Assembly (NCBI GenBank): GCA_965153355.1
Contig: OZ231126.1
Location: 14,136,001 to 14,200,000, forward strand
DNA length: 64,000 nt
DNA from: Flaccisagitta enflata
Taxonomy: Eukaryota
Direction: 5' to 3'
Positions 44,186 through 44,441 of the stretch are shown piece after piece. A program made the translations under genes and the position numbers. The notes under the pieces were generated by a model. It saw only the letters and a list, made by a program, of their open reading frames with translations, was not told the origin of the DNA and did no database searches. How positions within the stretch are numbered: the first letter of the stretch is position 1; each line of letters starts with the position of its first letter.

Positions 44186-44441
44186 ATGGGTCGTAGAAGA
44201 AGAAAACGGAAAGGAAACAATAGGCGACGTAGACGTAGACGCAGACGCAGAACAAAAGTACTTATGCATATTCTATATTACATACATACAGACATGGTAT
44301 GACATACTAAATTACATACATGTACATAAACATTGCATATCAACATTCTTGTTACAGGGTGCTGGAACATCACAAAAAAGTGCGTTACGTGGAGTGAAAA
44401 GAACAATAGCCAAACGAAGACGGAGACGAAAAACGAAATGA
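44186..44441 (+). CDS. Spliced 51-aa Arg-rich protamine-like protein (exons 44186-44257, 44358-44441)
   Basis: MGRRRRKRKGNNRRRRRRRRRRTK|GAGTSQKSALRGVKRTIAKRRRRRKTK*. Phase-0 intron GTACTT...TTACAG of 100 nt. Arg codons are mixed (CGT/AGA/CGC/CGA/CGG/AGG), so not a simple microsatellite. TATATAAA at ~44086. Confidence 0.7.

What the first reader, a model, noticed from the sequence alone, without database searches (positions are those of the whole stretch)
44186..44441. Cryptic spliced protamine-like gene: candidate genome-condensing core protein
Seen: two Arg-rich blocks in different frames are joined by a 100-nt GT-AG intron into a 51-aa peptide that is over half R/K, downstream of a TATA box. 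It is missed by the ORF track. Established: adenovirus pVII/mu and baculovirus P6.9 are small basic DNA-condensing proteins. Inference: a functional analogue here, and a second intron-containing structural gene in the element. The junction creates KGAG, which resembles but does not match the adenain (M/L/I)xGx-G consensus.
Basis: partly seen in the sequence, partly recalled or inferred. Interest (0 to 1): 0.75.

Follow-up and report, generated by a model that had tools for sequence, protein, structure and literature searches.

The report
Spliced protamine-like gene in Maverick element
A virus-like element integrated in this genome carries a small spliced gene for a very positively charged protein, kept in its distant relatives too, which probably helps pack the element's DNA into virus particles.

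Summary
The gene is real, but longer than reported. The 100-nt GT-AG intron (44258-44357) and the 51-aa product (58.8% R+K) check out. There is also an upstream coding exon (44020-44057) and an 85-nt intron, so the 'TATA box' lies inside intron 1 and is not conserved. The full product is 78 aa; the 51-aa form may arise from a conserved internal Met. No junction read was found, and four RNA-library contigs cross the intron-1 donor unspliced. The genome supplies an independent check: 18 of 20 distant sister loci (protease identity 23-50%) carry the same protein; 14 lack intron 2 and read straight through the Gly motif, and 4 lack intron 1. Exons show purifying selection. The element has Maverick ends, an integrase, a clan-CE protease and a probable double jelly-roll capsid gene; no DNA polymerase was recognised. 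Best reading: a virion core protein with a conserved leader and two Arg/Lys blocks split by a Gly motif (GxG or GG). That motif lacks adenain's hydrophobic P4, so cleavage is uncertain. It works like adenovirus pVII/mu by inference but is not shown to be homologous. Function is untested.

The parts
44020..44057 (+).
   Evidence: 0 non-synonymous vs 3-4 synonymous differences in 12 codons in 3 pairwise comparisons; leader motif in 18 of 20 distant loci
44058..44142 (+). Intron 1, 85 nt, GT..TAG, phase 2
   Evidence: 85-107 nt with all three length remainders mod 3 in 9 copies, 56-72% identity; absent in L050, L051, L052, L056
44086..44093 (+). TATA-like word; lies in intron 1, not conserved
44143..44257 (+). 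Exon 2: end of leader, internal Met (44186), first Arg/Lys block
   Evidence: length 1 mod 3 in 8 of 9 copies; pN/pS of basic part 0.11-0.25
44186..44188 (+). Internal ATG in strong context; candidate start of a 51-aa short form
   Evidence: A at -3 in the window and in 14 of 14 distant loci that have intron 1
44258..44357 (+).
   Evidence: 100-106 nt with all remainders mod 3 in 9 copies; absent in 14 distant loci whose protein reads straight through
44358..44441 (+). Exon 3: G-A-G motif, linker, second Arg/Lys block, stop
   Evidence: pN/pS 0.15-0.36
39962..41516 (+). Intron-containing probable major capsid gene, cut upstream at the N gap 39952-39961 (extent approximate)
41776..42336 (+). 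Clan-CE (adenain/Ulp1-like) cysteine protease, 186 aa
   Evidence: H73, W74, Q127, C134 invariant in 11 of 11; model pLDDT 88; fold hits
42348..43334 (+). Ser/Gly-rich ORF, 328 aa, no family
43574..44014 (+). ORF with a hydrophobic segment; acceptor AG directly before its ATG; stop 5 nt before exon 1
44556..45140 (+). IAP gene (BIR + RING)
   Evidence: PF00653 E 4.9e-19, PF13920 E 4.3e-9
45300..45492 (+). Right terminus ending in the ACT-ACT Maverick end motif
   Evidence: three copies diverge right after it; inverted matches elsewhere

Best explanation
A three-exon late gene of an intron-containing Maverick/Polinton-type element encodes a small basic virion core protein. Shown by comparative evidence: the gene is real, spliced at these sites and under purifying selection; the protein has a conserved leader, an internal Met, and two Arg/Lys blocks around a Gly motif. 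Inferred: the Arg/Lys blocks bind and neutralise the element's dsDNA during particle assembly; leaky scanning past the weak first ATG yields a 51-aa leaderless form beside the 78-aa form; the leader may tether the DNA core to the capsid. Least certain (about 0.4): the element's protease cuts at the Gly motif during maturation, as adenain cuts pVII and pX.
For: Splice sites, start codons and frame kept in diverged sisters while introns change length freely. Exon pN/pS mostly 0-0.36. 18 of 20 distant loci have the gene just downstream of the protease; 14 lack intron 2, 4 lack intron 1, so each junction is matched by a contiguous natural relative. 8 public metagenome proteins keep the leader and all carry K/Q-V at the second donor, with unrelated or no tails after it. 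Net charge +34 over 78 aa. A Gly motif in 7 of 8 sequence groups, as GX-G in 4 and GG-X in 3, the two forms that adenain cleaves (PMC7998265, PMC4246237). The neighbouring protease is intact and of the adenain fold.
Against: No junction read; no RNA coverage of 44160-44977; 4 contigs from RNA libraries cross the intron-1 donor unspliced. No particle, binding or cleavage data. P4 is never M/I/L, while another element protein has a canonical (M/I/L)xGG site in 6 of 7 sequences, which suggests the protease prefers the ordinary consensus. The three GG-X groups are related, so the switch may be one event. L056 has no Gly motif. The capsid assignment rests on sub-threshold hits and its model failed. 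The leader part of exon 2 shows pN/pS up to 0.97.
Confidence: 0.65

Rival explanations
1. Real spliced gene, but a non-structural nucleic-acid-binding protein (nucleolar or RNA-binding regulator, or a chromatin-remodelling protamine mimic acting on host or element DNA in the nucleus).
For: Arg/Lys runs are also nuclear-localisation and RNA-binding motifs (general knowledge). The gene lies beside an accessory IAP gene. The cleavage motif is non-canonical.
Against: It stays next to the protease in 18 of 20 distant loci, whereas the IAP was not found in any of those 20. The central Gly motif is kept in 7 of 8 groups.
Confidence: 0.22
2. The functional product is unspliced: intron 2 is retained, giving a short His/hydrophobic tail, or the single 110-aa ORF 44109-44441 is used.
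For: The first 45 nt of intron 2 are 76-89% conserved, more than intron 1, and read through into a 13-23 aa tail in all 9 copies. Contigs cross the intron-1 donor unspliced. The 110-aa ORF exists.
Against: The tail shows no coding signature (pN/pS 0.46, 0.82, and 5 non-synonymous with 0 synonymous). Intron lengths vary in all three remainders mod 3, which breaks the 110-aa frame in sisters. Intron-less relatives encode the spliced arrangement.
Confidence: 0.07
3. A chance arrangement of low-complexity purine-rich DNA, or a captured host protamine gene with no role for the element.
For: Arg/Lys-rich frames arise often in this repeat-rich genome (stray hits).
Against: Synonymous bias, a leader motif that occurs once in six frames of the whole window (the motif was derived from these sequences), fixed position after the protease across families down to 23% protease identity.
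Confidence: 0.04

Closest known systems
Adenovirus core proteins pVII and pX/mu
   Same: Small, highly basic; encoded with capsid and maturation protease; pVII has an N-terminal piece proposed to anchor capsomers and is cut at a Gly motif (PMC7998265, passages).
   Different: No sequence homology tested positive (no Pfam family for the 110-aa frame that holds exon 3). The Gly motif lies between two basic blocks and lacks M/I/L at P4. The gene is split by two spliceosomal introns and sits in an integrating element.
Vertebrate Mavericks/Polintons (Barreat and Katzourakis, PMC8097293)
   Same: AGT-AGT..ACT-ACT ends, 6-bp target duplication (in a derivative), rve integrase, cysteine protease, probable jelly-roll capsid genes.
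   Different: Intact vertebrate elements were reported intron-less (passages). Here capsid, integrase and basic genes are interrupted; no pPolB or ATPase was recognised; no protamine-like gene appears in the passages read.
Adintovirus pX-like domains (PLA2X, GasderminX) and adomavirus LO6/Macc (PMC8502044 section 3.2; 10.1101/341131 passages)
   Same: Candidate core proteins in the same virus lineage; adomavirus late genes have acceptors just before their ATG, as seen here at 43574.
   Different: Those match the hydrophobic segment of pX and are fused to membrane-active domains; this protein has no hydrophobic segment and stands alone.
Baculovirus P6.9 and other viral protamine-like proteins (PMC6163548, PMC5899202; search listing only)
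   Same: Size under 15 kDa and Arg-rich.
   Different: Different virus realm; the Ser/Thr-rich phosphorylation pattern of P6.9 (recalled) is not evident here; no homology tested.

Membership tests
Maverick/Polinton (element) | Terminal inverted repeats with AGT-AGT..ACT-ACT ends | tested here: met
   Right end at 45492 in 3 copies; inverted left end 46.7 kb from the C2 copy's right end; both ends on L082. The window copy has no left end.
Maverick/Polinton (element) | 6-bp target site duplication | tested here: inconclusive
   Perfect in the 2-kb derivative L082; not found for the C2 copy; not testable in the window copy.
Maverick/Polinton (element) | Retroviral-type (rve) integrase | tested here: met
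   PF00665 hits in 6 of 30 sister ORFs, best E 8e-6, and 1 of 35; all below the curated cut-off, gene in pieces.
Maverick/Polinton (element) | Adenain-like cysteine protease | tested here: met
   (adintovirus adenain E 9.5e-5).
Maverick/Polinton (element) | Double jelly-roll major capsid protein | tested here: inconclusive
   Atlas score 0.97 to clusters with PF21738 in 10% of members, recognition 2236 below 2300; 2 of 12 profile hits match capsid families below cut-off; fold failed, pLDDT 35. Probable.
Maverick/Polinton (element) | Protein-primed DNA polymerase B | tested here: inconclusive
   Not recognised by Pfam, PDB profile, Atlas or tblastn with two host-genome pPolBs; introns and divergence may hide it.
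Maverick/Polinton (element) | Packaging ATPase | tested here: inconclusive
   No ATPase family among the ORF pieces scanned; no dedicated search.
Adenovirus pVII / pX family (protein) | Sequence homology to pVII or pX profiles | tested here: inconclusive
   No Pfam hit for the frame holding exon 3; exons 1-2 were not scanned against Pfam; the leader profile found only 8 unnamed close relatives.
Adenovirus pVII / pX family (protein) | Adenain site (M/I/L)XGG-X or (M/I/L)XGX-G | tested here: not met
   Gly pattern present in 7 of 8 groups, P4 never M/I/L (consensus, where relaxed P4 Gln/Asn is also reported).
Adenovirus pVII / pX family (protein) | Bound to DNA inside virions | not testable with these tools
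   Needs particles or an in vitro assay.
Protamine-like viral core proteins (functional class) | Under 15 kDa, very basic, Arg clusters | tested here: met
   78 aa, 47.4% R+K, net +34; short form 51 aa, 58.8%.
Protamine-like viral core proteins (functional class) | Condenses DNA | not testable with these tools
   Bench assay needed.

The most novel reading that the evidence does not exclude
A lineage of intron-bearing animal Mavericks builds adenovirus-style cores with a dedicated, lineage-wide pre-protamine: a capsid-anchoring leader plus two Arg/Lys blocks that the element's protease separates at a non-canonical Gly site. It would be the first stand-alone genome-condensing protein defined for Mavericks, hidden from annotation by splicing, and a functional or remote counterpart of adenovirus pVII/mu.
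Probability: 0.3. Interest if true: 0.8.

Novelty: new variant of a known kind. Interest (0 to 1): 0.58.

Why it matters
Maverick particles had not been observed as of PMC8097293, and how these elements pack DNA is open. A core-like protein kept across families whose proteases share 23-50% identity argues for selection on particle formation and gives a cheap test: a short peptide, a 186-aa protease and one splice junction. It also shows that ORF-based annotation misses structural genes in intron-containing Mavericks, and it records two intron positions present or absent in complementary groups within one genome.

Tried and rejected
The raw-read run gave 0 reads from about 6% of the run (no test); three contig sets gave 8 pieces and no joint. 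Their small word share is no evidence of habitat or expression. TATA promoter at 44086: rejected. Alternative donor 44297: not conserved. Intron-2 read-through tail as coding: not supported. A DNA pattern over intron 1 found 0 matches in the genome and was uninformative. No relatives of the protease in viral or metagenome contig scans; 30 unnamed relatives in the protein collection, without context. Capsid exon: no longer relatives by word search, no PDB sequence hit, fold failed. Polymerase not found. Two queries (exon 1, basic IAP leader) and the long-form count used coordinates off by one; corrected. A gene name recalled for adomaviruses (Prasz) was not found in the two papers checked. Earlier scan notes: none. 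No complex prediction was run.

Full report
Observation. The sequence at 44186-44441 is as described: ATG at 44186, GT at 44258, CAG ending at 44357, stop at 44439-44441. The two exons give 51 aa with 22 Arg, 8 Lys and no acidic residue, and K-G-A-G spans the junction.

Close copies. A genome search gave 14 matches, 9 of which cover the gene, at 74-100% identity. The alignment of the window with 6 diverged copies shows a conserved block from 44020 to a donor at 44058, a diverged stretch holding the TATA-like word, and renewed conservation from an acceptor at 44142 in frame with the ATG at 44186. The gene therefore has three exons and a 78-aa product (24 Arg, 13 Lys, net +34). In the 9 copies intron 1 is 85-107 nt and intron 2 is 100-106 nt, with every remainder modulo 3, while exon 1 is always 38 nt and exon 2 keeps its phase in 8 of 9; L009 is degraded, L008 is cut in exon 3 and L007 has a changed stop (the script located sites by motifs, so one search is the independent view). 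Among three diverged copies, exon 1 shows 3-4 synonymous and no non-synonymous differences, the basic part of exon 2 pN/pS 0.11-0.25 and exon 3 0.15-0.36; the leader part of exon 2 is looser, 0.24-0.97. The counts are small.

Distant families. The protease has 64 matches in the genome; I fetched 20 further loci. Eighteen have the leader motif shortly downstream of the protease; L046 and L053 do not within the stretch fetched. Fourteen have intron 1 at the same Arg codon and no second intron: their basic region reads through K-G-A-G (L037-39) or a G-G pair (11 loci) to the stop. Four (L050, L051, L052, L056) lack intron 1 and read through the leader, but have a phase-0 GT-AG intron between the two basic blocks, 3 to 6 codons before the Gly motif where there is one (read by eye). 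Each junction of the window's gene is thus matched by a contiguous natural relative. A protease tree separates the four intron-2-only loci (98/99) and leaves the rest poorly resolved, with long branches, so the order of intron gain and loss is not settled. Eight unnamed public proteins match the leader profile; all are unspliced readings with K/Q-V at the second donor and no shared tail.

Two starts. The internal Met has A at -3 in the window and in 14 of 14 intron-1 loci, whereas the first ATG has a pyrimidine there and abuts or overlaps the stop of the upstream gene. This is inference.

RNA. Of 5 runs listed, 4 were laid. The raw-read run gave no read; three contig sets gave 8 pieces, none over 44160-44977, and no joint. 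Four pieces cross the intron-1 donor unspliced, one spanning the whole intron. They may be DNA, pre-mRNA or the 3' end of the upstream gene, but they count against the model as far as they go. The intron-2 junction is untested.

The element. The protease at 41776 keeps His, Trp, Gln and Cys in 11 of 11 sequences, models well (pLDDT 88) and matches clan-CE proteases, including an adintovirus adenain (E 9.5e-5), ASFV pS273R and adenovirus protease. The gene upstream is a probable double jelly-roll capsid gene (weak, and the fold failed). Sister copies have rve integrase pieces. The right end at 45492 carries the ACT-ACT motif described for Mavericks (PMC8097293, passages), and a 2-kb derivative has both ends and a 6-bp duplication. 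No polymerase or ATPase was recognised. The window copy is cut at an assembly gap and its left part is not in the window. I file the element as Maverick-like, with membership incomplete.

Cleavage motif. Adenain cuts (M/I/L)XGX-G and (M/I/L)XGG-X, with some relaxation at P4 (PMC7998265 and PMC4246237, passages). The basic protein has GX-G in 4 sequence groups, GG-X in 3 related groups and neither in L056; P4 is never M/I/L. Another protein of the element has an invariant GG with a canonical P4 in 6 of 7 sequences, and a second Gly pair mostly without it. So the protease probably accepts the ordinary consensus, and the site in the basic protein is at best a relaxed or slow one. It may instead be a flexible hinge.

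Mechanism. Shown: gene structure by comparison, selection, position and charge. Inferred: DNA condensation in particles (about 0.65), a capsid-tethering leader by analogy with the pVII N-terminus, and cleavage (about 0.4). The main rival is a non-structural nucleic-acid-binding role (0.22).

Literature. Ten searches were run. 'Protamine' with 'adomavirus' gave 0 papers; none of the 20 papers listed contains 'protamine-like', and no paper listed or 98 has both a polinton and a protamine term. Read as passages: 10.1101/341131, PMC8097293, PMC7998265, PMC4246237, PMC11957031 (introners in dinoflagellate polinton-like elements), PMC11071308, PMC12711042, 10.1101/2022.07.28.501842. Passages plus named sections: PMC8502044 (3.2), PMC11071296 (adomavirus section, which reports histone-like 'Histoid' genes, and figure legends). 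Abstract and outline only: 10.64898/2026.10.13.758929. Listing only: PMC6163548, PMC5899202. No supplements were read; the annotated maps and 'Adintoc' proteins of the adintovirus papers could include this family. The library omits most subscription papers.

Verdict. A real, conserved, spliced basic gene; a new variant of the small basic viral core protein, in a Maverick lineage with introns. Interest 0.58.

Noticed in passing
window 44467-44553; L016, L018, L019, L021, L023, L030: A second basic stretch precedes the IAP. In six sister copies it is in frame as an N-terminal extension of the IAP; in the window it is a separate 28-codon ORF that stops before the IAP start.
   Followed up: partly
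L082 (G000:C7:58986350-58988420): A 2-kb non-autonomous derivative with both Maverick ends and a perfect 6-bp target duplication whose only recognised gene is the IAP.
   Followed up: partly
window 44258-44302: The first 45 nt of intron 2 are 76-89% conserved without a coding signature and are rich in CA/ACAT words; possibly a splicing-regulatory element.
   Followed up: partly
L035:5799-6860 and homologues (alignment A5): An unassigned element protein upstream of the integrase has an invariant GG with a canonical adenain-type P4 in 6 of 7 sequences; a likely protease substrate.
   Followed up: partly
window 43560-43577; L027:5300-5325: Splice-acceptor-like AG directly or shortly before late-gene start codons, as reported for adomavirus late genes.
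   Followed up: no
window 42348-43334; L057:5015-5638: The Ser/Gly-rich ORF follows the protease only in the window's family; a similar C-terminal part seems to lie upstream of the integrase in a more distant family (by eye).
   Followed up: no
L034:5100-9800: ORFs resembling a classical Polinton (P-loop ATPase, small basic protein, minor capsid) lie on the other strand beside a sister copy (by eye).
   Followed up: no
window 39952-39961 and 41521-41660: An assembly gap cuts the element upstream; a host-repeat-like insert with a long T run lies near the end of the capsid gene.
   Followed up: no
window 51438-53606 (-): An uninterrupted 722-aa ORF with Phe-zipper, PH and SH2 hits, SH2B-like.
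   Followed up: no
window 16064-18235 (+): A 723-aa ORF with no Pfam family.
   Followed up: no
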